Assembly: GCA_965660855.1 (NCBI GenBank)
Contig: CBFIBM010000003.1
Location: 86,382 to 150,381, forward strand
Length of the DNA: 64,000 nt
Direction: 5' to 3'
Origin: an uncultured bacterium
GTDB taxonomy: Bacteria; Fidelibacterota; Marinisomatia; Marinisomatales; UBA1611
This document shows positions 46,161 to 64,000 of this stretch, piece after piece (position 1 is the first letter of the stretch; every line of letters starts with the position of its first letter). The position numbers were made by a program, and so were the translations under genes. A model generated the notes under the pieces. That model was not told the DNA's origin and did no database searches. It saw nothing but the letters and a program-made list of their open reading frames with translations.

Positions 46161-46266
46161 ATGAATCTTTAATAATATATATTGCACAAAATTTAAATAT
46201 ATATAATTACGCCATGGCTACTCATATTTATTAAAATACTACTCATTTGTTTTTGTAAATTTCAAA

Positions 46267-48096
46267 ATGATAGATAATAAATTTTATACTTTAGTAATAA
46301 TGTTTTTATTTAGTCAAGTAGTAATATGCTCGACTGAAGAATTTGATGAAAAGCCAACCACAAGGAATCCTGATTTTGCATTAATAGATTCTTTAGTCGA
46401 TTATAAATATGCACAACCTGAAAGAGCTATTACATTTGCAAGGACGGTCTTGCAAAGAAAGAAATATGCTACTGGAGGTTTTCCAAAGATCGAAAGCGCA
46501 TTCTATAATCATTTAGGTGAAATTTATCTTCGAATGAATCTACCTTCACAAGCTTTATCTTATTTTATTGAAGCAAAAAGGTTGCTCCCTAAGACTAAAA
46601 CTCCATGGCTAGATGTTCAATTTGGAAATGTCTATTACAATCAAGATATGATGATAAAGGCAAAAGAAGCTTATGGGAAAGCTCTTGATATTTTTTCTAA
46701 AACTAAAATTTCTGGAGATAGACTCGATGGAAAAAAGACGGGTGGAAACTCCATTGCAGGAATTGCAACGTGTTATAGCAATCTTGGTAAGATAGAAATA
46801 CAATTAAAAAATTATGAATCTGCATTATCATATTTTGAATTAGCTTTGGAAATTAGAAAAGATTTTTATGATAATTTGGATAGCAATAGGGACATTCAAT
46901 TTAACGTTTTAACGGGTGTACTGTACCAGTATTATTTGCTTGCAGAACTATATCATATTTGGGAAATGGATGATTTAGCTATGGAAAAAATTTCTTTAAT
47001 TGATAGTATAGCTATTCCCATTTATAATAAAAATAATCTGGATCCACTTCCTAGCCAAGATAAAGGGTTAAGGTTGATTTATCGTGTATTAGGTCTATCA
47101 AACGATATGAAAATAATTATTAAAACAAATGAAAAAAAATATAAACAAGCTAAACAAGCATCTATTTTAGCAAATATGTTTTTGAAAGATTGGCCTATTT
47201 ATCTTTCTAGAAGCTATTCAAATAGTGCAAGGATGTATTTTGAGCAAGATAGTTTATATAAATCATTGGAACATATCGATGCAGGGATTCGGGTGTGTCA
47301 ATTAAACGGTTTAGGCTTTGAAGAATTGGAACTCCTCAAATACAAAATGGAATTATTAGAAAAAAGCAATTTAAACAAAAGTGCAATTGATATTGCATCA
47401 AAAATATTAGATAAGAAGATCATTATTGAAAAGATGCAAATGTCTGATATGGTAGAGAGCGTTGAGATTAAATCTGAATTATACCAAAGTAGAAATGAGC
47501 TTTTAAAATCAAAAAGAAGACAAACCCTACTTCAGATTCTAATAGGTGTTTTAATATTAATTACTGGCTTAATTATAATTTCTTATAGAAATAAAAAAAG
47601 ATATTCTGAGCAAATTGCAATTATCAATGAGCAAGAAAATCAGATTACTCAAGTTGAATTGAAAAATAAAGAAGCTGAACTAGTTAATATCTCTACTTTT
47701 GCTCTATCAAAAAATGACCTTTTAATTAATATTATTAAAGAATTAGAATATCACATAACTCTCATAAATGATAAGGATGATCAAAAATCTTTAAAACCAT
47801 TAAAAAAGAAAATTCAGAGCTTTATTGATGATGGTATAGATTGGGAGGATTATAAACTTCAATTTTCTAATGTTTTTCCTAATTTTGTCGACTCATTGAT
47901 AGCAAATAATCCAGATATTACAAATAATGATATCAAGTTATGTTGTTATCTAAAGATGAATATGAATACAAAAGATATAGCGCAGCTTTTTGGCTTAACT
48001 GTCAGAGCCATAGAGAATAAACGATATAGACTTAGGAAAAAGCTTTCATTAGAAAAAGATGTTAGTCTTATGTCCTTTATAAATAGCTTAAAATAG
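46267..48096 (+). CDS. membrane-spanning TPR-repeat regulator with C-terminal LuxR/GerE-type HTH
   Basis: N-terminal hydrophobic segment, about 380 aa of TPR-like helices, TM helix LLQILIGVLILITGLIIISY, a coiled coil, then NNDIKLCCYLKMNMNTKDIAQLFGLTVRAIENKRYRLRKKL (LuxR-type HTH). Confidence 0.7.
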   Translation: MIDNKFYTLVIMFLFSQVVICSTEEFDEKPTTRNPDFALIDSLVDYKYAQPERAITFARTVLQRKKYATGGFPKIESAFYNHLGEIYLRMNLPSQALSYFIEAKRLLPKTKTPWLDVQFGNVYYNQDMMIKAKEAYGKALDIFSKTKISGDRLDGKKTGGNSIAGIATCYSNLGKIEIQLKNYESALSYFELALEIRKDFYDNLDSNRDIQFNVLTGVLYQYYLLAELYHIWEMDDLAMEKISLIDSIAIPIYNKNNLDPLPSQDKGLRLIYRVLGLSNDMKIIIKTNEKKYKQAKQASILANMFLKDWPIYLSRSYSNSARMYFEQDSLYKSLEHIDAGIRVCQLNGLGFEELELLKYKMELLEKSNLNKSAIDIASKILDKKIIIEKMQMSDMVESVEIKSELYQSRNELLKSKRRQTLLQILIGVLILITGLIIISYRNKKRYSEQIAIINEQENQITQVELKNKEAELVNISTFALSKNDLLINIIKELEYHITLINDKDDQKSLKPLKKKIQSFIDDGIDWEDYKLQFSNVFPNFVDSLIANNPDITNNDIKLCCYLKMNMNTKDIAQLFGLTVRAIENKRYRLRKKLSLEKDVSLMSFINSLK

Positions 48097-48209: not shown

Positions 48210-49568
48210 ATGAAAGTAAAATATCTAATTTTATTCGTCCTTTACTTACTCATCAGTTCCTGTGAGGATGTTGAAGTTGCATACCCTGGAAATAATCAAT
48301 CTACCAGAGCTGTTGCTCCAAATGGTACTGCTGACTGGTTAATTGCGCAAGTGAATGGCGTTGGGCAATTACCCGAAAATTCAGCTGCAGGGATTGATAT
48401 AGCAACCTTGAATGCTGAAGATGAAAATCCAGATGATGAGTTTTCTTATTCGATTGCAAGTCAGACTATTGGCAATACTTCAGGTGATTATTTCAGAATT
48501 GAGAAAGAAGAAGATGGAGATTTTAAACTTGTTTTAAATAATAGTAGTATTAACTATGAATCTCTAAGCGGTGTAAAGGTAGTTACGATTAATATTTCAG
48601 TTGAGGATGATAGTCCTGATAAATTAAAAAGTGATTTTTCATTGGAAGTGGAAATAATTAATGTGAATGAGTCCCCTTATTTTATTAACCTAAGCTCAAT
48701 TACCCCTTTCGCTGATGAATATGTTGAATTTTCTTCTGGAAATTTAATTTGGGATGATATAGACGAAGGTGATAATCCAATTTTAAATACACAAGGTCCT
48801 GGCTGGTTAAATATAAGTAATGAAGGTTTGTTTAGTGGGTCACCCTCATCTTCAGATGTGGGTGTTAACTCATTTGTTTTGACCATTTCTGATGACGATA
48901 ATCCACCGATCTCTGTAAGTGAGGAAGTAAATATTGAAGTAAGAGAGAATGTCGCTCCAATTTTTGAAAACGCGCCCTCATCACTATCAATTAAGGTAGG
49001 TTGTTATGATACAAATGAAAGCATTGTAAATCTAAATTGGCGAGATCCAAATAATGATGCTCCATATTTTTCTGGTAATGATTTGGTTTCATTTAGTTTT
49101 AATGAAAATATCTCCTGGTTAAATATTTCTGATGATGGAAATATATTTTGTGTTGATGCTCCTCAAAATACAGATGCGGCTGTTTCTGAAATTGAAATTA
49201 CCATTGCTGACAATAGGCCGAGTAATCCAAAAAGCACAACAAAATCATTTGATGTTACAGTAATAGCAAATGATGCACCAAGTTTCACAAACCTTAATGG
49301 CTTTGCAGATGAAATGGATTCAGGTACAGAATATATCTTTGAATTGGAATATGATGATCCAAATGACGATCTTCTCGCATTTGAATTGAAGTTTGCTATT
49401 GGTAATAATGTATTTGATTCTGATCAATTAGGGTGGGTTAGTATTGATAATTCAGGAGAAATCACTCTAAGTCCAACATCGAGTAATGCTGGAGATTATA
49501 CGATCAGTTTTATTATTTCAGATGAATGCTTTGAAGTTTCAGAAGAAAAATCTTTTACAATTAGATAA
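48210..49568 (+). CDS. lipoprotein with one cadherin-like repeat and several He_PIG/dystroglycan-type Ig-like repeats
   Basis: Lipobox LLISSC. Cadherin-like LPENSAAGIDIATLNAEDENPDDEFSYSI...EVEIINVNESPYF. The Ig-like module WLNISNEGLFSGSPSSSDVGVNSFVLTISD is repeated. Confidence 0.6.
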   Translation: MKVKYLILFVLYLLISSCEDVEVAYPGNNQSTRAVAPNGTADWLIAQVNGVGQLPENSAAGIDIATLNAEDENPDDEFSYSIASQTIGNTSGDYFRIEKEEDGDFKLVLNNSSINYESLSGVKVVTINISVEDDSPDKLKSDFSLEVEIINVNESPYFINLSSITPFADEYVEFSSGNLIWDDIDEGDNPILNTQGPGWLNISNEGLFSGSPSSSDVGVNSFVLTISDDDNPPISVSEEVNIEVRENVAPIFENAPSSLSIKVGCYDTNESIVNLNWRDPNNDAPYFSGNDLVSFSFNENISWLNISDDGNIFCVDAPQNTDAAVSEIEITIADNRPSNPKSTTKSFDVTVIANDAPSFTNLNGFADEMDSGTEYIFELEYDDPNDDLLAFELKFAIGNNVFDSDQLGWVSIDNSGEITLSPTSSNAGDYTISFIISDECFEVSEEKSFTIR

Positions 49569-49588
49569 ATTAAAAAAAAGGAATTAAC

Positions 49589-49987
49589 ATGAAGTTGAGA
49601 TCAGATATTAATGCAATGACCGCCCTTGTTTATGGAGGAGCAGCATTCTTACTTGTTATCGTAGGGTTTAGGTCTATTCTAGCAACATTAGGAGATCATG
49701 TTGGTGTGATGACTTACTTATCTATTGCTGCACTTGGTTTAGAATTTGTACTTTTAATTTTATACGCAAAGGCTATTTATAACTTGGGTCCAGATTCAGG
49801 TGAAAGTAAAGTCAGCGCTGGGGCAAGTGTTGCGAACATGGATAGTAAAGAGATATCAGAGTTAACCAAAGCAGTAATAAAAGTTGCTGAAATGGGCGAG
49901 GGTTTAGCAAATCTCTCAAATGGGAAAGTTCGTGATGAAGTGAAAAAAGAGGTTAATGATATTCTTTCGAAAGCAATTAAGAAATAG
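49589..49987 (+). CDS. 132-aa two-TM inner-membrane protein, GldL/PorL-like (tentative)
   Basis: ALVYGGAAFLLVIVGF...GVMTYLSIAALGLEFVLLILYA parallels the remembered GldL N-terminus FAYGMGAAVVIVGALF...GTVMLSIGLLTEALIFALSAF, including the TM2 Glu (E52, codon 49742-49744). The cytoplasmic tail is short and helical. Confidence 0.45.
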   Translation: MKLRSDINAMTALVYGGAAFLLVIVGFRSILATLGDHVGVMTYLSIAALGLEFVLLILYAKAIYNLGPDSGESKVSAGASVANMDSKEISELTKAVIKVAEMGEGLANLSNGKVRDEVKKEVNDILSKAIKK

Positions 49988-49996
49988 GTCTATAAA

Positions 49997-51436
49997 ATGA
50001 AAAAAGTAGAAGTCTATTTTCTAATCAATCTTGGTGCTATACTTAGCCTGTTTGCTATTGAAGGTGAGCTGTCTATTTATATGCAAAGACAAGATGATAT
50101 TTTAAAGAATGTTGCTCAAGATAAGCTTCAAACGCTTGTTGAAATAAGCAATGTTGAATCAAATTATGATGATTCCGATTATTACAGGTTATTTTTCGAT
50201 GTTGAAGGACAATATGAACAAGGTTCAATCGAGTTTAATCCTAGTTTTACTACTCCAATTGTAGAGGTTGATGGCGACTCGATAAAAGTAGATGATTCAT
50301 ATGTATGGGAATTGGATTCTGTTAATATCGAGCCTTATACAGAAGAGGGGGATAAAAATAGATATGTAGCTAAGGTCAAGCTTGCATCCATTGAGGATAA
50401 CTATCTAAATCAACCCTTTGATATAAACCTAGGTGTGAATTTCATTCCCGCTATTGACACTGTTACTTACGCAAAATGGACAAAGGCGTTTGGAGATTAC
50501 ACAGTTACAGACAAATTGTTGAAGATAATCGATGATGAAGTTTCCTCAAAAGGAAGCTTTGAAATGGAGAGGGAATTTGACACCCCGGTAACACTGATTT
50601 ATATGGATGGTCAGCAAGCAGAGTTTTTTGTTTTGTTTGATAAAGAAAAGTATACTGTGTTAAGAGGTTTGGATTGGGAGATTCCGTTCAGTATTGGTGG
50701 GGTGAATTCTGAAGCTGATTTTGATATTGAGATATCAAGTGGCAAAGATTTAGTAAAAGAGTCTCAACCAGGGTTGCCAAGATCATTTATCAAAGGTAAA
50801 GGTACGAGTGATGGAACTGTTGAAATTGTTGGGCTGAGGAAAAGAGATAAAAAATCTAGTATTACTAAGGCTAAGATAGTAGTAGTGGATCCACAGTATA
50901 GTTCTCCAACTGAAGACAAAGAAATTTACATTGGAGAGCAGTATGTTTTTGATAGCAGAGTTAAAGATGTAGACAGAGATAGAATTTCTGTGAAAATTTC
51001 TGGATCTGCGGTAAACTCAAAAACTTTTAACTCTTACGAAGCAAAATTAAAACCTAAAAGTCGAGGAAAAGTTAAATTCCAAACTTTTGTTGATGGGAAA
51101 GCTGTAAAAGGATTATTTCGTGAAGTTTCTGTAAAGAAAATTCCACCGCCTAAGCTTGAGTTTAAGCGTTTAGGAAAAGGATCAAATAATATGATGGTTA
51201 CAGTTACAACATATGGAAATAATAATGGTAAAAAAGCTGTAGTCCCTCTCTCTGGTATTTATGGAAAACTAGACGAAGAGCAAGCTGAAAAACGGGTTGG
51301 AAATCGAAGAGTTGTTAAATACAGCTTTGAAATGGACGAGCCACAATTTGGAACAACCACTGAGATAAGAATAAAAGTTGTGGATAAATATAAAGCAGAA
51401 ACTGTCTCAGACAATGAATTTGAATATTATGATTAA
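49997..51436 (+). CDS. bitopic protein (N-terminal TM plus ~440-aa periplasmic Ig-like domains), GldM/PorM-like (tentative)
   Basis: Start is 9 nt after the GldL-like gene. The TM YFLINLGAILSLFAIEGEL can be compared with GldM MINLMYLVFIAMLALNVS. The late motif FREVSVKKIPPPKLEF resembles the GldM C-terminal F.V..iP.P motif. Confidence 0.4.
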   Translation: MKKVEVYFLINLGAILSLFAIEGELSIYMQRQDDILKNVAQDKLQTLVEISNVESNYDDSDYYRLFFDVEGQYEQGSIEFNPSFTTPIVEVDGDSIKVDDSYVWELDSVNIEPYTEEGDKNRYVAKVKLASIEDNYLNQPFDINLGVNFIPAIDTVTYAKWTKAFGDYTVTDKLLKIIDDEVSSKGSFEMEREFDTPVTLIYMDGQQAEFFVLFDKEKYTVLRGLDWEIPFSIGGVNSEADFDIEISSGKDLVKESQPGLPRSFIKGKGTSDGTVEIVGLRKRDKKSSITKAKIVVVDPQYSSPTEDKEIYIGEQYVFDSRVKDVDRDRISVKISGSAVNSKTFNSYEAKLKPKSRGKVKFQTFVDGKAVKGLFREVSVKKIPPPKLEFKRLGKGSNNMMVTVTTYGNNNGKKAVVPLSGIYGKLDEEQAEKRVGNRRVVKYSFEMDEPQFGTTTEIRIKVVDKYKAETVSDNEFEYYD

Positions 51437-53174
51437 AAAACACCATATTTCTACTCTCTTATTTTTAAGTAGCACTCTATTATTTGGTCAAAAATCAATC
51501 TACTGGGAAGTAGCTGATCCTGTTGTGAACAGCGAGTTCATCGAATCTTATATTAATAGATTGATTGAGGTTGATAAATTTGAGCAAAATACCATTCAAG
51601 CTTCTCATACAATCATTGTCCAAATGGATATTGAAAATGATAAAATTAGTTTAGAAAAACTCAAAGCTAAAAATTATCAAATGGGAGAGTACCAATCTTT
51701 TGATATGGAAGAAATTGAAAAGATGGATCCTGTCCAGATTAATACATTAATGTCGCGAGAGTACAAGTGGAAAGATGTAAGTCGAAGAGATTTGTCTGAG
51801 TTAGAAGCTTTTAGTACTGTAGATAATGTATTTCAAGAGCGTAGTTTTAAAGATGCTAGAGATGCATTTTGGTGGTCGAATTCTCAAATAAGCGTCAGTA
51901 CTGCTCAGAAGGTTTTTATTAGACAGAAAAGTAATAGTCTTGCATTTCGTTTGGAGAAGGGTTTTCTTGACCTTGGACTGTCAAGAGAATTGTCTGAAAA
52001 TTTGATTTTAGGCATTTCAAATGATGTTGTGAGCTCATATCTCATTATACCTGGAGCAACTAATTCTACAGCTATGGGTATTGGGCATCCTTTAGAAGGA
52101 AATTTAGGCTTTGGCTTTAAGTTTGACACTCATACTCTTGGTGGTCAGGTTAACTATATGGATGTCGATGGTCAGGATTATGACTATTCAAAAGTTTTTA
52201 GCAGAAAACATTTGGTGATCCCATCAAGTAGTGGACTATTATATTGGAGCAATACTTTCCAAATTAATAGAAATGTTGATTCCAAGTATGGTAATAAAGT
52301 TAAAGATCAAAAAAAAGAAAAAGCCAAAGCAGAAAAAGCAATCTCGAAATCTAGAGAATGGAATACTGGATCAGACAAATTTAATGGAGTATTTCAGGTA
52401 ATGGAAGAAGAGACTGTTACTTTTATTGTTGATAGAGATAATAAAGCACACAAGTTAGCAGAAAAGGGTAAAGAGTGGACGACAAAATCAGGAAGTGTTG
52501 TTAAAGCAGTTTTAACAAATAGAAACCCCAAAGAGATTACCCTGTTAAGAGCAAAGGATAATTTTAAAATTGTACTAAAATTAAGAGATCTATCCGAAGA
52601 GGATCAATCTTTTGTTGAAAGTTTAAAGTGGGATGGTAAAAAAACAAAAACTCTATCTATTGAGCAACTAAATCCCTCCGATCAACAGCTTATTAGAGCA
52701 GCGACAGGGACTGTGAAGGCAAGAAGCGGTAAAGGTCGTGAGCTAAAAGTCAGTGAACCATTTGCTTCAATGCGGTTGAAAGCAGGTCTTGCATTTACTC
52801 AATTTGTTCACGCTAGAGTTTTTGAAGATAATTTAGTATCGGTAATTGATCGTACGTCTGGCTCTAATTCATTAGGGTTTTATGCAAAAGTTGAGGGAGT
52901 GACAGATAGTAAAAGCTCCAAAGGGTATATCCAAGTAAATGTAGCAGGTAATGGATTTAAGGCATACGGGTTGGGTTTAGAGCATAATGTATGGAAAATG
53001 GTTAATTTAGGAGTGGATTTGACTCTTTACCCTGATAACAGTTTTATCGAATTTAAAAATGATCGAAATAATCCAGAAGATAAATGGAGATGGTATCCAG
53101 GGAGTCGCCCAGATGAAAATGGAAAGGGCGGAGGAACTCTTTTCTTTTCTCCTTATATTACTGTGAACTTCTAA
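51429..53174 (+). CDS. secreted probable outer-membrane beta-barrel protein with internal tandem SHD1-like domains
   Basis: ATG 51429 (ATGA-type overlap with the upstream stop) gives signal peptide MIKKHHISTLLFLSSTLLFGQ. C-terminal beta-signal LFFSPYITVNF. 52353-52625 encodes REWNTGSDKFNGVF... and KEWTTKSGSVVKAVL...IVLKLRDLSEEDQSFVESL. Confidence 0.5.
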   Translation: MIKKHHISTLLFLSSTLLFGQKSIYWEVADPVVNSEFIESYINRLIEVDKFEQNTIQASHTIIVQMDIENDKISLEKLKAKNYQMGEYQSFDMEEIEKMDPVQINTLMSREYKWKDVSRRDLSELEAFSTVDNVFQERSFKDARDAFWWSNSQISVSTAQKVFIRQKSNSLAFRLEKGFLDLGLSRELSENLILGISNDVVSSYLIIPGATNSTAMGIGHPLEGNLGFGFKFDTHTLGGQVNYMDVDGQDYDYSKVFSRKHLVIPSSSGLLYWSNTFQINRNVDSKYGNKVKDQKKEKAKAEKAISKSREWNTGSDKFNGVFQVMEEETVTFIVDRDNKAHKLAEKGKEWTTKSGSVVKAVLTNRNPKEITLLRAKDNFKIVLKLRDLSEEDQSFVESLKWDGKKTKTLSIEQLNPSDQQLIRAATGTVKARSGKGRELKVSEPFASMRLKAGLAFTQFVHARVFEDNLVSVIDRTSGSNSLGFYAKVEGVTDSKSSKGYIQVNVAGNGFKAYGLGLEHNVWKMVNLGVDLTLYPDNSFIEFKNDRNNPEDKWRWYPGSRPDENGKGGGTLFFSPYITVNF

Positions 53175-53187
53175 AAACGGAACTTAT

Positions 53188-55506
53188 ATGACTCTAGTAT
53201 TTAAATATTTTACAATTTTAGCTTTTTCATCAACGCTTATTTTTAGTCAAAATGAGTTAAAATTAAAAAAAGACAAAGCGCAGGTTACCGAGGATGAAAG
53301 CATTAAAATAGATGTCTTAAAAAATGACGGAATTAAAGATAAAAGTAACCTAATAATTAAGATTGAAAAACAAGCTCAAAAAGGAGTTGCCGTACTATCT
53401 GGGAAAATGATCGAGTATACCCCCAATAGTAATGAAAGTGGATCAGATAGTTTTACATACTCAGTTGATATTGGTACTGGAGCTGGTACAGCTGAAGTCT
53501 CTGTCAAAATTAAATCAGTAAATGATGAACCCACCGGACTTAGTCTTTCTAGTAAGACAATTAAAGAAAATAAACCTGAAGGGACATTAATTGGTAAGCT
53601 AATTGTTGATGATCCAGATATGAATGATACTTTCAACTTTGGTCTATCTAGAGATAGTAAAGCAGATTTTCGAATTGATGGTGAAAAGTTACTTTCAAAA
53701 AGATCATTTGATTATGAGGAGCAAAGTAAATATAATTTATCAATACAAGTATCAGACGCAGCAGGTGAATCTAATGTTTTTGATATAGCAGTGAATATTG
53801 AAAATGAAAATGAAGCTCCAAAACTCATTGGGGATAAAGACTTAAACATTAATCACCCGGAAGATGCGGGAAAAATTGTGGCAAGAATTCAAGTAGAAGA
53901 CCCTGATTCTGACCAATCGGGTCTTAAATACAAGCTTACTAAGAGTCTAGATAAGGAACATTTTAAAATCACTCGTAGTGGCGATATCTCATTTTTAAAA
54001 GAGCCGGATTTTGAAAACCCAAAAGATAAAAATAAAAATAATACTTATAATGTTTCATACAAAGTAACAGATAGTAAAGACCCTTCCCTTTCCATTGAAG
54101 GAGAAGTTACTATTAATCTTCTTGATGCTGAGGAAACAGAAGTTAAGGCTTTGGACAAAAGGAAATTTATTGCTTGGTCTGTAGATCATCAACCATATCA
54201 CATTTTGATGGAAGAAGCCGTAGAGGATTATTTGAAATTAAAATATTCTGATGATTCTATTGATGAGGCAGTTGATGATGGATATGGTGCTAGTATTCAG
54301 GAACTAAAGCCAACAGATCAAATTATTATTGTTCAGCAAAAAGGTAATAATAGTGAAATTTATGAAATTTGGTATGGTAACGGATTAGACTATACCATAA
54401 TCGATAGAGAAAAAGTGGATTGGATTTTTAGTCAGGATATACAATCTGTTCTTGTCACAAAAGATCAATATCTTAATAGTGATTCAGAGACAGTATTTCA
54501 TAAAAGTGAAAGTGATAGATTGATGGCTAGCTATGGAAATGAATTTTCTGTCTGGCACTCCAATAATTTCAAAATGTCACTTGCTTCCTTTTCTATGAGA
54601 TCGAATTTATTGCAATACGCATCTAATATGCGTGTAGGAAATAAATTAATAGGAATTCCAGGTGAGCTTGGTGCAGGGGCAGAATTTGGTATTGCGACAC
54701 AACGATCAGAATTTGGTTTTCGATTGCCAATTTCATTTGATTTTGCAACATCTAATTCTGATGGTATTGATTTACCAGAAGCTGATAATTTAGGGTTGTA
54801 TGCACGTGGAAATATTGAAAATTTATTTTCAACTAATACTGATTTTCATGGATTGATTGGGTTTTCTTTTTATTCACCAAGTGTTGGTAATGTTTTAAGT
54901 TCCCCTAAAGATTTAGAAAGTGACAGTACAAAGTGGGGGGCTATAAACGACTCCACTGAAAATATTAATATTTTAGATAGCTATGCTTTATTTGGTGCGA
55001 CTGTTCAAGTTCCAGTAAATGCACCTTTTATTGGTCGCTTAACCGCAACACCGGGTATTCATTACATAAAGATAGCCCACCGTTTAAAAGATAAGCGCTA
55101 TTCAGCAGATGATGACTTGTATGAAAGGCTTTATTATAATCAAATGTTTGAGCAAAATGATAGTACTTTGACTTTCAATTCAGAAAAATTAAATGATGAA
55201 AATGAATCTTTTACATCTCTATCATCTTTTTACTTACGATTTGATCTACTAGGGAAAATAGGGGAAAAGCCTAACGTAATTGAGAGATTATCATTCTTGG
55301 ATTTCATTAAAATTTCCAATGTCCCTTTTTATGAGGTTTCATTACAGTTTATTCCCGGTTTTAATACAATCAGCACACTGAATGTGAATTTCTCAGACCA
55401 ATTTGGCATGTCTTTGACACGTTTGTCTTCCGATGATGCATTAAAAGGAAATTGGATGCCAGAATCAAAACTTTGGTTTGGATTTAATTATCGTGCTAAT
55501 TTTTAA
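53188..55506 (+). CDS. secreted protein: bacterial cadherin-like repeats fused to a probable C-terminal outer-membrane beta-barrel
   Basis: Signal peptide. IDVLKNDG...YTPNSNESGSDSFTYSV. Two cadherin repeats end in VNDEP and ENEAP. The C-terminal ~440 aa show alternating strands and end in LWFGFNYRANF. Confidence 0.5.
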   Translation: MTLVFKYFTILAFSSTLIFSQNELKLKKDKAQVTEDESIKIDVLKNDGIKDKSNLIIKIEKQAQKGVAVLSGKMIEYTPNSNESGSDSFTYSVDIGTGAGTAEVSVKIKSVNDEPTGLSLSSKTIKENKPEGTLIGKLIVDDPDMNDTFNFGLSRDSKADFRIDGEKLLSKRSFDYEEQSKYNLSIQVSDAAGESNVFDIAVNIENENEAPKLIGDKDLNINHPEDAGKIVARIQVEDPDSDQSGLKYKLTKSLDKEHFKITRSGDISFLKEPDFENPKDKNKNNTYNVSYKVTDSKDPSLSIEGEVTINLLDAEETEVKALDKRKFIAWSVDHQPYHILMEEAVEDYLKLKYSDDSIDEAVDDGYGASIQELKPTDQIIIVQQKGNNSEIYEIWYGNGLDYTIIDREKVDWIFSQDIQSVLVTKDQYLNSDSETVFHKSESDRLMASYGNEFSVWHSNNFKMSLASFSMRSNLLQYASNMRVGNKLIGIPGELGAGAEFGIATQRSEFGFRLPISFDFATSNSDGIDLPEADNLGLYARGNIENLFSTNTDFHGLIGFSFYSPSVGNVLSSPKDLESDSTKWGAINDSTENINILDSYALFGATVQVPVNAPFIGRLTATPGIHYIKIAHRLKDKRYSADDDLYERLYYNQMFEQNDSTLTFNSEKLNDENESFTSLSSFYLRFDLLGKIGEKPNVIERLSFLDFIKISNVPFYEVSLQFIPGFNTISTLNVNFSDQFGMSLTRLSSDDALKGNWMPESKLWFGFNYRANF

Positions 55507-55577
55507 ATCCTAGATTCTTTATTTGAGGACTAAAGTAAAGAGAATTTTTTTTAATTAAAACCTGGACAAAGAACTAA

Positions 55578-58250: not shown

Positions 58251-58298
58251 TTAAATTTTTAATTCATTTATTATGAAACACTTCTTAAGGAGTTCATT

Positions 58299-61200
58299 AT
58301 GAATAAGCTCTTATTAATATTTGTTTTATTTACCTATGTCCTTAACGGGCAAAAATATAAAACTAATAATCAAAGTTTATTTAATTCAAAAAATAAAATA
58401 AATACAGCCGAAACTTTAAGTTCTACAGTTCCAAGGTTGCTATCCTATCAAGGCCTCTTAACAAAAACAGATGGCAAAGCAATCAAGGATGGTAGTATAG
58501 AGGTAACTTTTAGGTTATATACATCTTTGGAAGAAGGGGTTCATTTTTGGGAAGAGGTGCAAAATGTTGTTATCGAAGATGGTATCCTCACTGCTGTTTT
58601 AGGAAAGATTATACCAATAGATATCGTTCCTGATGCATCTTTTTTAGAAGTAGAAATAAATGGTACAGTTCTTTCACCTCGCCAAGAAATGACTTCTTCA
58701 TTTTATTCTATTATCTCAGATACTTCAAAATACTCCCAAGGTGGAAATTATTTGGATCTTGATGGTTTACCAGATTTAAATATTTTTGCAAGGAAAGATA
58801 CTCTTAGCAATTACACCCTAATAGATAGCCTTAATCCAGTTGCTTTGAGTGGGGATTATCTTGATTTAGAAAATGTTCCTGATTTATCAGAAGTTCTTCA
58901 AAGTGACACACTTGATTTATACGTGATGATAGATAGCCTTAATTCGTATGTTCTTCAATCAAGTTTAAGTATAGTTGCTTTTTCAAATGACTATTCAGAT
59001 TTAAATAATATTCCTGACCTTAATCAATATGCGACAAAGGATACTTTGACTAATTTCATTTCAGAAGACACCTTATCCTTCTATGCTTTGAACACAGAAT
59101 TAGGTTCTATTGCATTGCAAGATACTAATAATGTTAATATTACAGGTGGATCCATTTCTGGTGTTTCTGATATTTCGGTTGCAGATGGAGGTACAGGCGC
59201 TTCTGATATAGCTACTGCGAGAGAAAATTTAGGTCTTGAAATTGGTACAGATGTTCAAGGATACGATGCAGATCTAGCAGATCTAGCAGACGGTTCCTTA
59301 TCAGCATCAAAAGTACAATTTTTAGAAAATATTAGTTCCGATGTTCAAGAGCAAATTAATAATTTAGGTTTAAACAGTTTAATGGACCTTGGTGTGGTCG
59401 CTGACTCCTCTGAGTTAAATTTTGTTGATGGAGTTACATCAAATATTCAAACTCAATTAGATAATAAACAAGAAATAAACTCGAACCTTACCTCGATAGT
59501 CAATCTAGATCAAACAGATGGAAATTTCATTGTGTCTGATGGAAATAACTGGACGGTTGAAAACGGAGCAGATGCGAGGGCATCCTTGAATTTAGGTTCA
59601 ATGTCGACTCAACAATCAGATAATGTCACAATCTCGGGTGGAAGAGTGACGGGCATATTAGACATTGCGATTGCAGACGGGGGAACTGGCGCATCAGATA
59701 TCGCTACGGCAAGAGAAAATTTAGGACTCCAAATTGGTGCTGATATTCAAGGCTATGATGCTGACCTTGCTGATATATCAAGTTTATCGCAAGCTGAGGG
59801 TAACATCATTGTTTCCAATGGGAGTAATTGGACCGCCGAATCTGGTTCTGATGCTAGAGAATCTCTTGGATTATCTATAGGGAGTGATATCCAAGGCTAT
59901 GATGCAGATTTAGAAGATTTAGCAGATGGAACCCTATCTTCTAGTAAAATAGAGAATAATGAATACTTTATTACATCCTCAGGAAATGCCAATGAGGTTT
60001 GGACTTCTGATGGAAGCGGAGCAGGAACATGGGCCACTTCTACCAATACCCTCACAGGAGCAGGGTCTACAATAGATACAGAGGATTTATCAGCATCTCA
60101 AGCGGTGGTTACGGATAGTGATGGCAAAATAGCGGTATCAGATGTAACGGTCACTGAATTAAATTATGTGGATGGAGTAACATCAAGCATCCAGGCTCAA
60201 TTAGATGCAAAACAATTAGCTGATTCTGATTTAGATGATTTAGCTGTATTACCTCAAAGTAATGGTAATATTATCGTCTCGGATGGAAGTAATTGGACTG
60301 CCGAATCTGGTTCTGATGCTAGGGAATCTCTTGGATTATCTATAGGGAGCGATGTTCAGGGTTATGATGCTGATTTAACAGATTTAGCAGATGGAACCCT
60401 GTCTGCTAGTAAAGTAGAGAACAATGAGTATTTTATTACATCTCCTGGTAACGCTGGTGAAGTATGGATTTCAGATGGTTCTGGTGCAGGTGAATGGGGT
60501 CTATCAGCAGGCATAACCGGAGCCGCATCTACCGTGGATACGGAAGATTTGACAGGGAAGAGAACGCTTATATCAAATATTGATGGTAAAATTGCAATAT
60601 CTGACATTACATCCCAAGAACTAGGTTATTTAGATGATGTATCAAGTAATGTACAAACTCAATTAGATGGTAAACAGCCTTTGAATTCTAACTTAACAGA
60701 CTTAGTTGGATTAACTCAAAGTGATGGGAATTTTATTATTTCTGATGGAGTAAATTGGACTGTAGAAAAGGGAGCAGATGCCCGGGCATCTTTGGGGTTA
60801 GGCTCTTTATCTACACAAGAATCTAGTGCCGTAGCTATTACTGGGGGTTCTATAGCCGGTATTGCAGATATTACCATTTCTGATGGTGGAACTGGAGCTT
60901 CAGATATAGCAACTGCAAGGGAAAATTTAGGGCTTGAAATTGGAACAGATATTCAAGGTTACGATGCAGACCTAGCAGACCTAGCAGATGGAACTCTATC
61001 CGCAAGTAAAGTTGAAAATAATGAATACTTTATTACTTCTTCAGGCTCAGCGAATGAGGTGTGGACATCCGATGGAAGTGGTGCTGGAACATGGGCCACT
61101 TCTACAAACGCCCTCACTGGAGCGGGATCTACGATAGATACAGAAAATTTATCAGCATCTGTAGTTGTAGTTACAGATAGTAATGGTAAAATAGCAGTAT

Positions 61201-63443
61201 CAGATGTTACAGCAGCAGAACTTAATTATGTAGATGGAGTTACCTCCAACATCCAGACTCAGTTAGATGCAAAGGGAACAGGAATGGTTAGCTCTTTATC
61301 AGACTTGAGTGTTACTTCCACAGCAACAGAGTTAAATCTTTTAGATGGGGTAACTTCTACAACATCAGAGCTAAATATTTTAGATGGGGTAACCGCCACA
61401 GCAGCAGAACTTAATTATGTAGATGGAGTTACCTCCAACATCCAGACTCAGTTAGATGCAAAGGGAACAGGAACGGTTAGCTCTTTATCAGACTTGAGTG
61501 TTACTTCCACAGCAACAGAGTTAAATCTTTTAGATGGTGTATCTGGATTAGTTCAAGGAGACCTTACAAAGTTAGCAGCGGTTGACGCCACAGCAGCAGA
61601 ACTGAATTATGTGGATGGAGTTACCTCCAACATTCAGACTCAACTAGATGCGAAGGGAACAGGAACGGTTAGCTCTTTATCCGACTTGAGTATTACCTCC
61701 ACAGCGACAGAGTTAAATATATTAGATGGTGTTACTTCTACTACTGGAGAGTTAAATATTCTTGATGGGGTAACCGCCACAGCAGCAGAGCTTAATTATG
61801 TAGATGGAGTTACCTCCAACATCCAGACTCAGTTAGATGCGAAGGGTACAGGAACAGTTAGCTCTTTATCCGACTTGAGTGTTACTTCCACAGCGACAGA
61901 GTTAAATATATTAGATGGTGTTACTTCTACTACTGGAGAGTTAAATATTCTTGATGGGGTAACCGCCACAGCAGCAGAGCTTAATTATGTAGATGGAGTT
62001 ACCTCCAACATCCAGACTCAGTTAGATGCGAAATCTTCTATAACAGGACTTGATGGTCTTACGGATGTTAAATCAGGTGGAAGTAATTTTTCAAATTCGA
62101 TGATTGTTGGACATCAAACAACAGGTACACTTAACAATGCAGATGAAAATATTGGACTAGGTGTTGGATCCCTTGAATCGCTTACCTCTGGTGATAGAAA
62201 TACTGCTATCGGGAAAGATGCAATGAATAGTAACACTGATGGTAATTATAACACTAGTTCTGGATATCAAAGCTTATATGTCAATACTACTGGTAGTTTT
62301 AATCTGGCATCAGGAAATTCAGCATTGGGGCTAAATATTGATGGAGATTCAAACACGGGTTTAGGGCATAGAGCATTAAATAGTAATACAAGTGGAGACT
62401 TAAATATTGGAGTTGGTCGAAGATCATTATATTCAACAACCACAAGTAATTATAATTCAGCAATTGGCTCTTATGCTTTAGAAGATGCCAACAGGACAGC
62501 AGATACGGATGGTTATAATACTGCACTTGGGTATAAAGCTGGTAACACAGGAACTAACGACGTAACGACAGGGAATAAGAATACTCTATTAGGAGCAAAT
62601 ACTGCCTCTTCAGCCGCAGCAGGAACCAATCAGACGGTTATTGGTTACGGTGCGTCCGGTACAGCGAATAATAGTGTTACGATTGGTAATAGTGATGTAA
62701 CAGCATGGTATCCAGGTTCAGATAATACTGCAGATTTAGGTAGTAGCTCAGTTGAATTCAAAGATTTGTATATAGATGGTACTGCAAACTTAGATGCAGT
62801 TGATATTGATGGAGGTGCGATTGATGGTGCTGCTATAGGAGCAAATTCAGCATCAACGGGAGTATTCACAACCGTTACAGCAAGTACTTCTTTGGATGTT
62901 ACAGGTTCAGCAGGTGTGATATTAGAGAATGATGAAACTATTACAAATTCAAGTGATGGAACGGTTTTGGTTACAGCAACTACCACTTCTTTAAGTGGCG
63001 ACTTAACTGTCACAGGAAATGACATAACTTTTGGTAACGGAGAGACAATTTCTAACTCGACAGATGGAACGGTAGTTGTTACAGCAACTACCATTGAATT
63101 GTCCGGGAAAACTGACTTTGGTGATAATGCAATTACGGGTTATGGAGCAGATTTACAAACATTATCTGGAACTACAAAAACTCTTGCTGCAACTGACAAT
63201 GGAACTGTGATTGTATGTTCTAGTGGTTCCGCGACAACGATTACTGTCGCTTCTGGTGCAAGTTTACCTGCTGGATTTAATTGTATGATTGTTCAAAGTG
63301 GCGCAGGCCAGGTGACATTTAGTGGATCAGGTACTACCTTAAATGCGAGGAATGGTTTAAAGACTGCAGGACAATATGCAATGATGACATTAGTTCATCT
63401 TGGAAGTAATGTTTTTGTTATTTCAGGGGATACGACTCTTTAG
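58299..63443 (+). CDS. 1714-aa repetitive tail-fibre-like surface protein
   Basis: Signal peptide. N-terminal module LLSYQGLLTKTDGKAIKDGSIEVTFRLY...HFWEE. DY.DL.N.PDL motifs. Three copies of DGGTGASDIATARENLGL. Many ELNYVDGVTSNIQTQLDAK units. YadA-head-like NT.IG/NTA.G repeats. No T9SS type-A or type-B C-terminal domain recognised. Confidence 0.6.
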   Translation: MNKLLLIFVLFTYVLNGQKYKTNNQSLFNSKNKINTAETLSSTVPRLLSYQGLLTKTDGKAIKDGSIEVTFRLYTSLEEGVHFWEEVQNVVIEDGILTAVLGKIIPIDIVPDASFLEVEINGTVLSPRQEMTSSFYSIISDTSKYSQGGNYLDLDGLPDLNIFARKDTLSNYTLIDSLNPVALSGDYLDLENVPDLSEVLQSDTLDLYVMIDSLNSYVLQSSLSIVAFSNDYSDLNNIPDLNQYATKDTLTNFISEDTLSFYALNTELGSIALQDTNNVNITGGSISGVSDISVADGGTGASDIATARENLGLEIGTDVQGYDADLADLADGSLSASKVQFLENISSDVQEQINNLGLNSLMDLGVVADSSELNFVDGVTSNIQTQLDNKQEINSNLTSIVNLDQTDGNFIVSDGNNWTVENGADARASLNLGSMSTQQSDNVTISGGRVTGILDIAIADGGTGASDIATARENLGLQIGADIQGYDADLADISSLSQAEGNIIVSNGSNWTAESGSDARESLGLSIGSDIQGYDADLEDLADGTLSSSKIENNEYFITSSGNANEVWTSDGSGAGTWATSTNTLTGAGSTIDTEDLSASQAVVTDSDGKIAVSDVTVTELNYVDGVTSSIQAQLDAKQLADSDLDDLAVLPQSNGNIIVSDGSNWTAESGSDARESLGLSIGSDVQGYDADLTDLADGTLSASKVENNEYFITSPGNAGEVWISDGSGAGEWGLSAGITGAASTVDTEDLTGKRTLISNIDGKIAISDITSQELGYLDDVSSNVQTQLDGKQPLNSNLTDLVGLTQSDGNFIISDGVNWTVEKGADARASLGLGSLSTQESSAVAITGGSIAGIADITISDGGTGASDIATARENLGLEIGTDIQGYDADLADLADGTLSASKVENNEYFITSSGSANEVWTSDGSGAGTWATSTNALTGAGSTIDTENLSASVVVVTDSNGKIAVSDVTAAELNYVDGVTSNIQTQLDAKGTGMVSSLSDLSVTSTATELNLLDGVTSTTSELNILDGVTATAAELNYVDGVTSNIQTQLDAKGTGTVSSLSDLSVTSTATELNLLDGVSGLVQGDLTKLAAVDATAAELNYVDGVTSNIQTQLDAKGTGTVSSLSDLSITSTATELNILDGVTSTTGELNILDGVTATAAELNYVDGVTSNIQTQLDAKGTGTVSSLSDLSVTSTATELNILDGVTSTTGELNILDGVTATAAELNYVDGVTSNIQTQLDAKSSITGLDGLTDVKSGGSNFSNSMIVGHQTTGTLNNADENIGLGVGSLESLTSGDRNTAIGKDAMNSNTDGNYNTSSGYQSLYVNTTGSFNLASGNSALGLNIDGDSNTGLGHRALNSNTSGDLNIGVGRRSLYSTTTSNYNSAIGSYALEDANRTADTDGYNTALGYKAGNTGTNDVTTGNKNTLLGANTASSAAAGTNQTVIGYGASGTANNSVTIGNSDVTAWYPGSDNTADLGSSSVEFKDLYIDGTANLDAVDIDGGAIDGAAIGANSASTGVFTTVTASTSLDVTGSAGVILENDETITNSSDGTVLVTATTTSLSGDLTVTGNDITFGNGETISNSTDGTVVVTATTIELSGKTDFGDNAITGYGADLQTLSGTTKTLAATDNGTVIVCSSGSATTITVASGASLPAGFNCMIVQSGAGQVTFSGSGTTLNARNGLKTAGQYAMMTLVHLGSNVFVISGDTTL
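61209..62035 (+). repeat. in-frame tandem repeat, ~189-bp (63-64 aa) unit, about 4.3 copies, near-identical DNA
   Basis: Unit starts (ACAGCAGCAGA[AG]CT.AATTATGT.GATGGAGTTACCTCCAAC) at 61209, 61398, 61590, 61779 and 61968. Copies 4 and 5 are identical over the readable overlap. Copies 1 and 2 differ by 1 nt in the first ~140 nt. Confidence 0.9.
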
Positions 63444-63451
63444 GAAGAAAT

Positions 63452-64000
63452 ATGTACTTTTTCTTTAAAAATCATATAATAAAGTTTCTTTTCACCTCTA
63501 TAATTTTATTTGCTCAAGATTATGATTTGAAAACATTTCAATTTTCTCTTACCAATGAAATAATGGAGTCACAAGATTTAAAACTAAAAGGTTCGATTAG
63601 TTCAAACCTTTTTAGCACTAGTAGCAGCGATTCTATTTCTCTAAAAGGCGGGGTTATAAGTTCAGCATTAGGCTTATATTCAGAACCACCCAAACTTATT
63701 ACCTTTTTTCCTGATACAATAACGCAATCTGATCCTAATGTTGCACGTGCAATTGCGACTGATTTAAATGGAATACAAAGTACAAATTTGTATATACAAA
63801 TTGGTGGAAGTAAGAGAACTTTAAAACTTCCTATGGCGGTGGTTAATGATTCTATTTTTGAAGTACATATCCCAGAAAGCCTAATGACTGTTCGAAATTT
63901 TAGAACATATTTTGAGAGTGTTGATAGTATGGACTATTCCAGTTCTAGCGATTATAATACCCCATATTTAACCATTCCACAAAATGGTTTAAATATGGAA
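63452..64000 (+). CDS. 5' part of a secreted hypothetical protein (runs off the window)
   Basis: ATG 63452 is 8 nt after the fibre gene stop, and the frame is open to base 64000 (183 codons). Signal-like N-terminus MYFFFKNHIIKFLFTSIILFAQ. Not in the ORF track because no stop lies in the window. Confidence 0.5.
   Translation, partial: MYFFFKNHIIKFLFTSIILFAQDYDLKTFQFSLTNEIMESQDLKLKGSISSNLFSTSSSDSISLKGGVISSALGLYSEPPKLITFFPDTITQSDPNVARAIATDLNGIQSTNLYIQIGGSKRTLKLPMAVVNDSIFEVHIPESLMTVRNFRTYFESVDSMDYSSSSDYNTPYLTIPQNGLNME

What the first reader, a model, noticed from the sequence alone, without database searches (positions are those of the whole stretch)
48210..64000. Operon with gldK-L-M-N-like gene order but non-canonical parts: candidate new GldLM-type envelope machine linked to a giant fibre
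Eight co-directional genes have gaps of -8 to 71 nt. Their order is as follows. First, a lipoprotein (cadherin/Ig repeats). Second, a 132-aa two-TM GldL/PorL-like protein. Third, a bitopic GldM/PorM-like protein. Fourth, a signal-peptide protein with an OMP beta-signal and SHD1-like inserts. Fifth, a cadherin-plus-barrel protein. Sixth, a PKD/NHL propeller with a C-terminal anchor. Seventh, a 1714-aa tail-fibre-like protein. Eighth, another secreted protein. In canonical T9SS/gliding loci the order is gldK (lipoprotein), gldL, gldM, gldN. Here the lipoprotein-L-M-periplasmic/OM order is kept. However, the K-position protein shows no SUMF1/FGE-like features and the N-position protein looks like a barrel. 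Two type-A-CTD T9SS cargo genes lie just upstream, so the organism presumably has a T9SS. This locus could be a divergent core, or a second, repurposed proton-driven GldLM-type motor. Such a motor might display or move the giant fibre (an SprB-like logic). The system-level reading is inference.
Basis: partly seen in the sequence, partly recalled or inferred. Interest (0 to 1): 0.85.

Follow-up and report, generated by a model that had tools for sequence, protein, structure and literature searches.

The report
Conserved four-gene envelope cassette, GldLM-like
This ocean bacterium (SAR406/Marinimicrobia) carries an unannotated, phylum-wide set of four genes: two inner-membrane proteins that resemble the proton-driven motor of type 9 secretion in layout but not detectably in sequence, followed by two related outer-membrane proteins.

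Summary
The eight co-directional genes are real. The organism is a marine Marinimicrobia (Fidelibacterota).

Only four genes form a conserved unit:
- L: a 132-aa protein with two transmembrane helices (TM).
- M: a 479-aa protein with one TM helix and a large periplasmic part.
- g4 and g5: two paralogous outer-membrane proteins (hhalign E 2e-17).

L-M-g4-g5 recurs with the same order and tight spacing in about 90 fetched loci. These include about 47 Marinimicrobia species genomes and a KSB1 genome. The lipoprotein, NHL protein and giant fibre occur only in close relatives.

None of the four core proteins matches any Pfam, NCBIfam or PDB sequence, including GldK, GldL, GldM and GldN. Profile comparison with GldL and GldM is only marginal (4/300 and 17/300 shuffles reach the observed score). 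It does align the residues known to be essential for the motor.

In a Kapaibacterium genome, L-M sits directly upstream of PorU and PorV. PorE-like genes and T9SS cargo genes flank other copies.

Best reading (about 0.45): a GldLM-like, proton-driven trans-envelope module, possibly the unrecognised T9SS energy module outside Bacteroidia. Family membership is not shown. The link to the fibre is not supported.

The parts
46267..48096 (+). Context: 609-aa TPR protein with one TM segment and a LuxR/GerE-like C-terminal helix-turn-helix. Probable local regulator of the window-type (type A) loci.
   Evidence: TPR hits. The TM segment and the HTH motif are read from the sequence. A homologue (blast cluster c13) lies upstream in L004, L005, L006, L016, L022, L026 and L028. 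It is absent from the other locus types.
48210..49568 (+). g1: 452-aa lipoprotein with Ig/cadherin-like repeats. A lineage-specific accessory, not GldK-like.
   Evidence: Lipobox LLISSC. He_PIG, Big_9 and Cadherin hits, and no FGE-sulfatase/GldK hit. Present only in type A loci, with variable length of 289-655 aa.
49589..49987 (+). L: 132-aa inner-membrane protein. It has a two-TM hairpin and a cytoplasmic helix. Y15, G17-A18-A19 and E52 (mid-TM2) are invariant or near-invariant, and residue 28 is R or K in most members.
   Evidence: Alignments A1, A3 and A4. 69 representative clusters at E<=1e-3. AF2 model with pLDDT 77.6 and helices at 3-33, 40-65 and 86-131. No Pfam, NCBIfam or PDB hit.
49997..51436 (+). 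M: 479-aa bitopic inner-membrane protein. The N-terminal TM helix carries the conserved motif [KR]-V-[ED]-[VI]-Y-F-x-x-[YN]. About 440 beta-rich periplasmic residues follow.
   Evidence: Alignment A6. N-terminal motifs. No family or PDB hit. AF2 failed with a shallow alignment, pLDDT 34.
51414..53174 (+). g4: 586-aa outer-membrane protein with a signal peptide and a C-terminal beta-signal ending in Phe. The window type has an insert of about 150 aa.
   Evidence: C-termini of 46 homologues. Alignment A8. No Pfam or PDB hit. Start as called in public assemblies.
53188..55506 (+). g5: 772-aa paralogue of g4. In the window type it is preceded by about 300 aa of cadherin/Big_9 repeats.
   Evidence: Cadherin and Big_9 hits. 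g4 and g5 families are homologous: hhalign 98.9%, E 2.1e-17, 379 columns. Short forms of about 420 aa occur in other lineages.
55578..58250 (+). g6: 890-aa NHL-repeat protein with a C-terminal hydrophobic segment. Accessory.
   Evidence: TEN_NHL and NHL hits. A homologue follows the cassette only in L004, L006 and L007.
58299..63443 (+). g7: 1714-aa repetitive fibre protein related to phage tail-fibre and virion proteins. Accessory.
   Evidence: PHROG hits. Weak Bdello_MAT_N hit. Tandem repeats at 61209-62032. GC 0.41 against about 0.32 nearby. Not conserved next to the cassette.
63452..64000 (+). g8: secreted protein cut by the window end. Probably T9SS cargo.
   Evidence: The full-length homologue in L030 (615 aa, 44% identity) ends in a type-A CTD that is 42-44% identical to the CTDs of the two upstream cargo proteins.

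Best explanation
The operon is built around a conserved four-gene trans-envelope cassette. L and M form an inner-membrane complex that most likely works like the GldLM/PorLM stator.

Proposed mechanism: a ring of L hairpins surrounds the M helices. Protonation and deprotonation of the membrane-embedded L Glu52 against the charged N-terminal end of the M helix drives movement of the long periplasmic part of M. That movement delivers energy to the two paralogous outer-membrane proteins g4 and g5.

The most plausible use of this energy is T9SS-type secretion or handling of surface proteins in FCB-group phyla where canonical PorKLMN is not recognised.

In this lineage the core has acquired a regulator, a cadherin lipoprotein, cadherin repeats on g5, an NHL protein, a phage-like fibre and a CTD cargo gene.

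Shown: the cassette, its conservation, the topologies, the conserved charged residues, g4/g5 paralogy, and the T9SS neighbours.

Inferred: complex formation, stoichiometry, proton coupling, rotation, and the T9SS role.
For: 1. Conservation. L-M-g4-g5 has the same order and tight spacing (median gaps 9.5, -26 and 10 nt with longest-ORF starts). It is found in 47 Marinimicrobia species genomes, a KSB1 genome and many metagenome contigs, down to about 25% identity. There is one copy per genome, with one exception.

2. L resembles GldL. It has the same N-in/C-in two-TM hairpin and cytoplasmic helical tail. Glu is near-invariant in mid-TM2 and Tyr in TM1. These parallel GldL E49 and Y13, which are required for motor function (bioRxiv 10.1101/2020.05.11.089193).

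3. L aligns in register with GldL. hhalign against five solved GldL/PorL N-termini places GAA on GAA, F-R on F-K and E52 on E49 without gaps in the helices. Only 4 of 300 column shuffles reach that score.

4. M resembles GldM. It is bitopic and encoded 3-40 nt after L. Most family members have a basic residue exactly 8 positions before a conserved Tyr, as in GldM R9/Y17. hhalign aligns that Tyr with Y17, and 17 of 300 shuffles reach the score.

5. T9SS context.
- In Kapaibacterium, L, M, PorU (741 bits) and PorV (251 bits) are consecutive on one strand.
- PorE-like OmpA/M23 proteins lie next to the cassette in three sublineages.
- A C25 peptidase with a CTD lies upstream in KSB1.
- CTD cargo genes lie beside the cassette in the window, L054 and L063.

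6. Published surveys with the canonical GldK/L/M/N models found a complete T9SS only in Bacteroidetes (10.1101/031039). SAR406 genomes are nevertheless rich in CTD proteins (PMC5596340).
Against: - No significant sequence similarity of L or M to GldL/PorL or GldM/PorM in any test. hhalign probabilities are 1.4% and 0.9%.
- The single TIGR03513 hit among 48 family members (1.9e-4) does not come from the TM hairpin.
- The predicted secondary structure of M is beta-rich straight after a short helix, unlike the helical first periplasmic domain (D1) of GldM. This comes from a low-confidence model.
- The window's own M has Lys and Asn where GldM has R9 and Y17.
- A basic residue at the cytoplasmic end of a TM helix is expected anyway.
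- g4 and g5 have nothing in common with PorK or PorN.
- PorU/PorV adjacency was seen in one genome only, and there g4 and g5 are not adjacent.
- The presence or absence of canonical gldKLMN in these genomes was not tested.
Confidence: 0.45

Rival explanations
1. This is a conserved envelope complex that is neither a motor nor part of T9SS. It could be an outer-membrane biogenesis, tethering or uptake system. M would be a periplasm-spanning scaffold to two outer-membrane proteins, L a small membrane partner, and the likeness to GldLM coincidental.
For: No significant similarity to any known motor or T9SS family. The neighbours differ between lineages: a TonB_C lipoprotein, a ParA-like ATPase set, a PorE-like OmpA protein, or housekeeping genes. 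In L059 and L062 the cassette stands among unrelated genes. Foldseek returns only generic helical hairpins.
Against: A near-invariant Glu in the middle of a TM helix, together with conserved charged and aromatic residues in the partner's TM helix, is typical of ion-coupled machines and costly otherwise. The in-register match to the functional residues of GldL and GldM exceeds most shuffles. The L-M-PorU-PorV arrangement in Kapaibacterium also argues against it.
Confidence: 0.35
2. This is a dedicated machine that displays or moves the giant fibre.
For: In the window, the fibre gene and an NHL protein follow the cassette in one co-directional run with gaps of 48-71 nt. The fibre has a signal peptide and no T9SS CTD, so it needs some other anchoring route.
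Against: The fibre, NHL protein and lipoprotein are missing next to the cassette in most relatives (locus types B and C, KSB1, metagenome loci). In L030 the fibre and g8 homologues lie on the opposite strand. The fibre region has a different GC content and phage-like repeats, which suggests a recent addition.
Confidence: 0.08
3. This is a true gene-for-gene divergent PorK-PorL-PorM-PorN core, with g1 as K, L as L, M as M and g4 as N.
For: The order lipoprotein, two-TM protein, bitopic protein, secreted protein matches gldKLMN.
Against: g1 is not conserved with the cassette and has no FGE-sulfatase fold signal. g4 has an OMP beta-signal and is a paralogue of g5. PorN is a periplasmic ring protein and PorK a lipoprotein with the FGE fold (PMC12421860 abstract).
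Confidence: 0.04

Closest known systems
GldL-GldM / PorL-PorM proton-driven motor of the type 9 secretion and gliding system (PDB 6YS8, 7SAT, 7SAU, 7SAX, 7SAZ)
   Same: - Adjacent genes in the order small two-TM protein, then bitopic protein.
- Topology: a hairpin with a cytoplasmic helical tail, and one TM helix with a large periplasmic part.
- Glu in mid-TM2 and Tyr in TM1 of the small subunit.
- In most family members, a basic residue 8 positions before a Tyr in the partner's helix.
- T9SS genes nearby in some genomes.
   Different: - No significant sequence or profile similarity.
- The Tyr-to-GAA spacing in TM1 differs by one residue.
- M appears to lack the helical first periplasmic domain (D1) of GldM. 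This comes from a low-confidence model.
- The downstream partners are two paralogous outer-membrane proteins rather than the PorK lipoprotein and the PorN ring protein.
- The distribution is in Marinimicrobia, KSB1 and Kapaibacteria rather than Bacteroidia and Flavobacteriia.
MotAB / ExbBD / TolQR 5:2 ion-driven stators
   Same: - A membrane pair in which a bitopic subunit carries a conserved acidic residue near the cytoplasmic end of its single TM helix (M E/D5).
- Energy is passed to outer-membrane or cell-wall partners.
- TonB_C-domain and OmpA-like genes lie next to some cassettes.
   Different: L has two TM helices, not three or four. No hit to MotA_ExbB, ExbD or MotB models. M has no OmpA-like or TolR-like periplasmic domain.
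Myxococcus Agl-Glt gliding machinery (from my own knowledge; not tested here)
   Same: An inner-membrane motor combined with bitopic periplasm-spanning proteins and paralogous outer-membrane beta-barrel proteins (GltA/GltB).
   Different: The Agl motor is TolQR-like. No homology was tested or seen. The cassette here has only four genes.

Membership tests
GldL/PorL (TIGR03513) | Match to the family model, or to solved GldL/PorL sequences | tested here: not met
   No NCBIfam or Pfam hit for the window protein, nor for 43 N-terminal hairpins of the family. The family profile does not hit PDB GldL/PorL. hhalign probability 1.4%, P 0.036, with 4 of 300 shuffles reaching the score.
GldL/PorL (TIGR03513) | Two TM helices (N-in, C-in) followed by a cytoplasmic tail | tested here: met
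   The sequence shows a basic N-terminus and no signal peptide. AF2 helices at 3-33, 40-65 and 86-131, pLDDT 77.6.
GldL/PorL (TIGR03513) | Invariant Glu in TM2 (E49) and conserved Tyr in TM1 (Y13), both needed for motor function | tested here: inconclusive
   E52 and Y15 are at least 90% conserved across 48 diverse members. E52 aligns with E49. Y15 is offset by one residue relative to the GAA motif. Equivalence of function was not tested.
GldL/PorL (TIGR03513) | Forms a 5:2 complex with the bitopic partner | not testable with these tools
   No multimer prediction was available.
GldM/PorM (GldM_N/GldM_C, TIGR03517) | Match to the family models, or to solved GldM/PorM sequences | tested here: not met
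   No hits for four diverse members. The family profile against PDB returns only chance hits. hhalign of the TM region: probability 0.9%, with 17 of 300 shuffles reaching the score.
GldM/PorM (GldM_N/GldM_C, TIGR03517) | Single N-terminal TM helix with R9 and Y17, and a large periplasmic region | tested here: inconclusive
   The topology is met. A basic residue 8 positions before a Tyr is present in most lineages. The window protein has K3 and N11, and some members have Gly with the basic residue one position earlier.
GldM/PorM (GldM_N/GldM_C, TIGR03517) | Helical D1 domain followed by three Ig-like domains | tested here: inconclusive
   The AF2 model has pLDDT 34. Its secondary structure is beta-rich from residue 49 on. 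Only a shallow alignment was allowed.
GldK/PorK | Lipoprotein with the FGE-sulfatase (SUMF1) fold, encoded before L | tested here: not met
   g1 is a lipoprotein but hits only He_PIG, Big_9 and Cadherin. It is absent from most cassettes.
GldN/PorN | Periplasmic ring protein encoded after M, matching the GldN models | tested here: not met
   g4 has no hit in 21 members. It carries an OMP beta-signal and is a paralogue of g5.
Type 9 secretion system (as a system) | CTD cargo plus PorU/PorV/SprA and an energy module in the same genome | tested here: inconclusive
   CTD cargo genes are in the window. PorU and PorV lie next to L-M in Kapaibacterium only. SprA and the rest of the genome could not be searched. 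No canonical GldL or GldM N-terminus was found in 1.29 Mb of fetched loci.
Outer-membrane beta-barrel proteins (g4, g5) | Signal peptide, C-terminal beta-signal with terminal aromatic residue, barrel fold | tested here: inconclusive
   The signal peptide and the beta-signal are met. 44 of 46 g4 homologues end in F, one in W and one in L. g5 homologues of locus types A and B end in F or L. The fold was not predicted, because no permitted alignment existed.

The most novel reading that the evidence does not exclude
L-M-g4-g5 is the missing energy module of type 9 secretion in FCB-group phyla outside Bacteroidia (Marinimicrobia, KSB1, Kapaibacteria). It would be a very distant relative of the GldLM motor, coupled to a pair of outer-membrane proteins instead of the PorK/PorN ring. 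That is a second architecture for powering T9SS. It would also be the first functional handle on four phylum-wide 'hypothetical' genes of one of the most abundant deep-ocean bacterial groups.
Probability: 0.3. Interest if true: 0.85.

Novelty: new variant of a known kind. Interest (0 to 1): 0.68.

Why it matters
T9SS cargo with C-terminal sorting domains, together with PorU and PorV, are widespread in the FCB group. The PorKLMN energy module, however, has only been recognised in Bacteroidetes.

A conserved, single-copy, unannotated cassette with GldLM-like membrane features sits next to PorU/PorV in one lineage. That gives a concrete, testable candidate for what powers secretion in SAR406 and its relatives.

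If L-M turns out to be unrelated to GldLM, it is still an uncharacterised, probably ion-coupled trans-envelope machine conserved across a globally abundant phylum.

Tried and rejected
- Profile searches. Pfam and NCBIfam scans of all eight proteins, of 48 L-family members, of 43 L hairpins, of four M-family members and of 21 g4-family members found no Gld/Por family. One of the 48 L members hit TIGR03513 at 1.9e-4. I rejected this as evidence because no isolated hairpin reproduces it.
- PDB sequence searches with single proteins and with profiles of L, M and g4 gave nothing. The full-length L profile gave only coiled-coil artefacts.
- AF2 model of L: good, but Foldseek against PDB returned only generic hairpins such as ATP synthase c subunits and designed proteins, with no GldL. 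This is uninformative in either direction.
- Third homologue search, with the M profile: it returned the same 81-82% identity cluster and no added diversity.
- Metagenome scan with the Kapaibacterium M protein: no relatives.
- BLAST of PorU and PorV against all fetched loci: no further adjacency beyond Kapaibacterium and the KSB1 C25 fragment. No SprA-sized gene was found in any flank.
- Literature: no paper in the held library mentions GldL-like or PorL-like proteins, or T9SS components of Marinimicrobia beyond CTD proteins.
- Rejected readings: chance juxtaposition (conserved synteny), and a defence or mobile element (single-copy, phylum-wide, housekeeping flanks).
Full report
**Organism and observation**

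The window has about 32% GC. Its proteins are identical or near-identical to proteins from marine metagenomes and from MAGs named Candidatus Marinimicrobia, Neomarinimicrobiota or Fidelibacterota. The first 46 kb hold housekeeping genes: SecDF, SecA, ATP synthase, ParAB and AspRS.

All eight genes of the finding are present, co-directional and closely spaced. The two genes further upstream, beyond a TPR-type regulator gene and a small divergent ORF, carry T9SS C-terminal sorting domains. The descriptive part of the finding is therefore confirmed. Two minor exceptions are that no PKD or SHD1 profile hit was obtained.

**What the conserved unit is**

A profile of the 132-aa protein (L) was searched against 1.84 billion representative proteins. 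It found a small family of 69 clusters at E<=1e-3. The family shares an N-terminal two-helix hairpin and a cytoplasmic coiled-coil tail of variable length. The hairpin consensus is:

- helix 1: RTAxVYxGAAFLIvvVGxRT
- helix 2: ALxxEFxLLLxYAxTI

One scan of 185,579 species genomes returned 50 loci. BLAST-based synteny analysis of these gave the following.

- L is followed by the 479-aa protein (M), then the fourth gene (g4), then the fifth (g5), in every locus long enough to show them.
- This holds in 47 Marinimicrobia species genomes and one KSB1 genome, down to about 25% identity.
- Nine look-ups that returned informative loci, for distant family members in public assemblies, and a metagenome scan gave the same four genes again.
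- Spacing is tight, with median gaps of 9.5, -26 and 10 nt when longest-ORF starts are used.
- Only one MAG shows two copies.

The flanks differ by lineage:

- Window type (A): a TPR/LuxR-like regulator and a cadherin lipoprotein lie upstream.
- Type B: a zinc-ribbon protein, a TM protein, a ParA-like ATPase and two unknown proteins lie upstream.
- Type C: a TonB_C-domain lipoprotein lies upstream.
- Others: a PorE-like OmpA/M23 protein is adjacent.

The lipoprotein g1, the NHL protein g6, the fibre g7 and g8 accompany the cassette only in close relatives. In L030 the fibre and g8 homologues are on the other strand.

**The outer-membrane pair**

g4 and g5 have signal peptides. Of 46 g4 homologues, 44 end in Phe, one in Trp and one in Leu, within a motif of alternating hydrophobic residues. 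g5 homologues of locus types A and B end in Phe or Leu.

The two families are homologous along their whole core of about 440 residues: hhalign 98.9%, E 2.1e-17, 379 columns. In the window, g4 carries an insert of about 150 aa and g5 carries about 300 aa of N-terminal cadherin/Big_9 repeats. Both additions are absent from the short forms of about 420 aa.

Neither family matches Pfam or any PDB sequence. They are therefore not PorK or PorN, and the K-L-M-N mapping fails at both ends.

**Is L-M a GldL-GldM relative?**

Every sequence-based test was negative or marginal.

- No Pfam, NCBIfam or PDB hit was found for L, M, their relatives or their profiles.
- One of 48 L-family members hit TIGR03513 at 1.9e-4. 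No isolated hairpin does so, so that hit comes from the tail.
- I recovered five solved GldL/PorL N-termini from the PDB and aligned them. hhalign against the L hairpin profile gave probability 1.4% and P 0.036.

The hhalign alignment is nevertheless in register without gaps inside the helices. It places GAA on GAA, F-R28 on F-K27 and E52 on E49. Only 4 of 300 column-shuffled GldL alignments reach its score.

For M, hhalign of the TM region against four GldM/PorM N-termini aligned the conserved Tyr with GldM Y17. 17 of 300 shuffles reach that score.

The motor paper names the residues important for function. [quoted passage not shown] The new family compares as follows.

- L has a near-invariant Glu in mid-TM2 and a near-invariant Tyr in TM1.
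- Most M proteins have a basic residue exactly eight positions before the conserved Tyr, as in R9/Y17.
- M also has a near-universal acidic residue two positions after that basic residue.
- The window's own M has Lys and Asn at the two positions.

Structure did not help.

- The L model is confident (pLDDT 77.6; hairpin plus long helix).
- A two-helix hairpin finds only generic matches in the PDB.

My reading is that L-M works like GldLM and may be a very distant relative, but membership is not demonstrated.

**Link to type 9 secretion**

- In a Kapaibacterium genome (phylum Bacteroidota), an L-family gene, an M-family gene, PorU (741 bits; cut-off 420) and PorV (251 bits; cut-off 250) are consecutive on one strand, with gaps of 20-108 nt.
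- In KSB1, a C25-type peptidase with a CTD lies just upstream.
- A protein with PorE-like N-terminal domains, an M23 domain and an OmpA C-terminus flanks the cassette in L051, L052, L073 and L085-L091.
- CTD cargo genes lie beside the cassette in the window, L054 and L063.
- The full-length homologue of the window's truncated eighth gene ends in a typical type-A CTD.
- Published genome surveys that used the canonical GldK/L/M/N profiles detected T9SS only in Bacteroidetes.
- SAR406 genomes are known to encode many CTD proteins.

These points make 'the T9SS energy module of non-Bacteroidia lineages' the most attractive functional hypothesis. It rests on one strong adjacency and several weak ones. 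I could not search the rest of any genome for canonical gldKLMN or for SprA. None occurs in the 1.29 Mb fetched.

**The fibre**

The 1714-aa protein shares repeats with phage virion and tail-fibre families. It has 189- and 381-nt tandem repeats and a higher GC content than its surroundings. Assemblies of the same species break inside this gene. It is not conserved with the cassette. The 'machine that displays the giant fibre' idea is a local possibility at best.

**Verdict**

- Supported: the GldLM-like logic and the conserved neighbourhood.
- Not supported: the K/N mapping, the fibre link, and significant homology.

The real finding is a conserved, unannotated four-gene trans-envelope cassette, made of two inner-membrane proteins with motor-like conserved charges and two paralogous outer-membrane proteins. 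It is spread across Marinimicrobia and a few other FCB lineages. I found no description of it in the searchable literature.

I rate it a new variant of a known kind (an ion-driven, GldLM-type envelope motor) with moderate confidence. There is a substantial chance that it is something else entirely.

Noticed in passing
window 58299-63443: The fibre gene has a GC content of about 0.41 against about 0.32 around it. It has 189- and 381-nt tandem repeats at 61209-62032 and strong PHROG hits (virion structural protein 3e-30, tail fiber 7e-21). Public assemblies of the same species end inside it. This suggests a phage-derived, rapidly varying surface fibre.
   Followed up: partly
window 63452-64000; L030 17811-19658 (-): The truncated eighth gene has a 615-aa homologue that ends in a type-A T9SS sorting domain (QNYPNPFNP...), 42-44% identical to the CTDs of the two upstream cargo proteins. 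Gene 8 is therefore probably T9SS cargo.
   Followed up: yes
L053 4891-12317 (Kapaibacterium sp., DAIUAL010000026.1): An L-family gene, an M-family gene, PorU and PorV are consecutive on one strand. No g4 or g5 follows them.
   Followed up: partly
L008-L014, L029, L031-L033 (e.g. L010 5482-9857): In one Marinimicrobia lineage the cassette is preceded, co-directionally, by five genes: a zinc-ribbon protein, a TM protein, a ParA/MinD-like ATPase, a 476-aa protein and a 326-aa protein. The last has weak, sub-threshold hits to CdsD_C and T2SSB-type small periplasmic domains. This may be a larger operon.
   Followed up: partly
L037, L039-L049, L075-L083, L092 (e.g. L039 8898-9788): A 296-aa protein with a TonB_C domain (61.8 bits) and a lipoprotein-like signal sequence lies directly upstream of L in another lineage.
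   Followed up: partly
L052 4641-7571; L051 952-4124; L073 50-2977; L085-L088, L090, L091: A protein of about 976 aa lies next to the cassette in three sublineages. It has a CHU_0125/PorE-like N-terminal part, an M23 peptidase domain and an OmpA C-terminal peptidoglycan-binding domain.
   Followed up: partly
L007 and L051 (both MAG JAYPLH01): This is the only genome with two cassettes, one 80% and one about 29% identical to the window's L. It could be a real second copy or a mixed bin.
   Followed up: no
window 52280-52730 (g4 residues about 290-440): A lysine-rich insert of about 150 aa in g4 is found only in window-type loci. No SHD1 profile hit was obtained.
   Followed up: partly
window 58100-58250 (g6 C-terminus); L004 16006-18672: The NHL protein ends in a hydrophobic segment followed by a conserved Pro-rich tail (...LLLLLVNQGVAASLEDPPKLPPDFPF). 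This could be an unusual C-terminal anchor or sorting signal.
   Followed up: no
window 45687-46187 (-): A small protein of 157-166 aa is divergently transcribed from the TPR/LuxR-like regulator. It is conserved at that position in L004, L016 and L022, and on the same strand as the regulator in L026 (blast cluster c22). Its sequence looks like a winged-helix regulator.
   Followed up: no
L036 (bin labelled 'uncultured Lentisphaeria'): Its cassette proteins look almost the same as those of type C Marinimicrobia loci, for example at the L and M N-termini. The contig may be misbinned.
   Followed up: no
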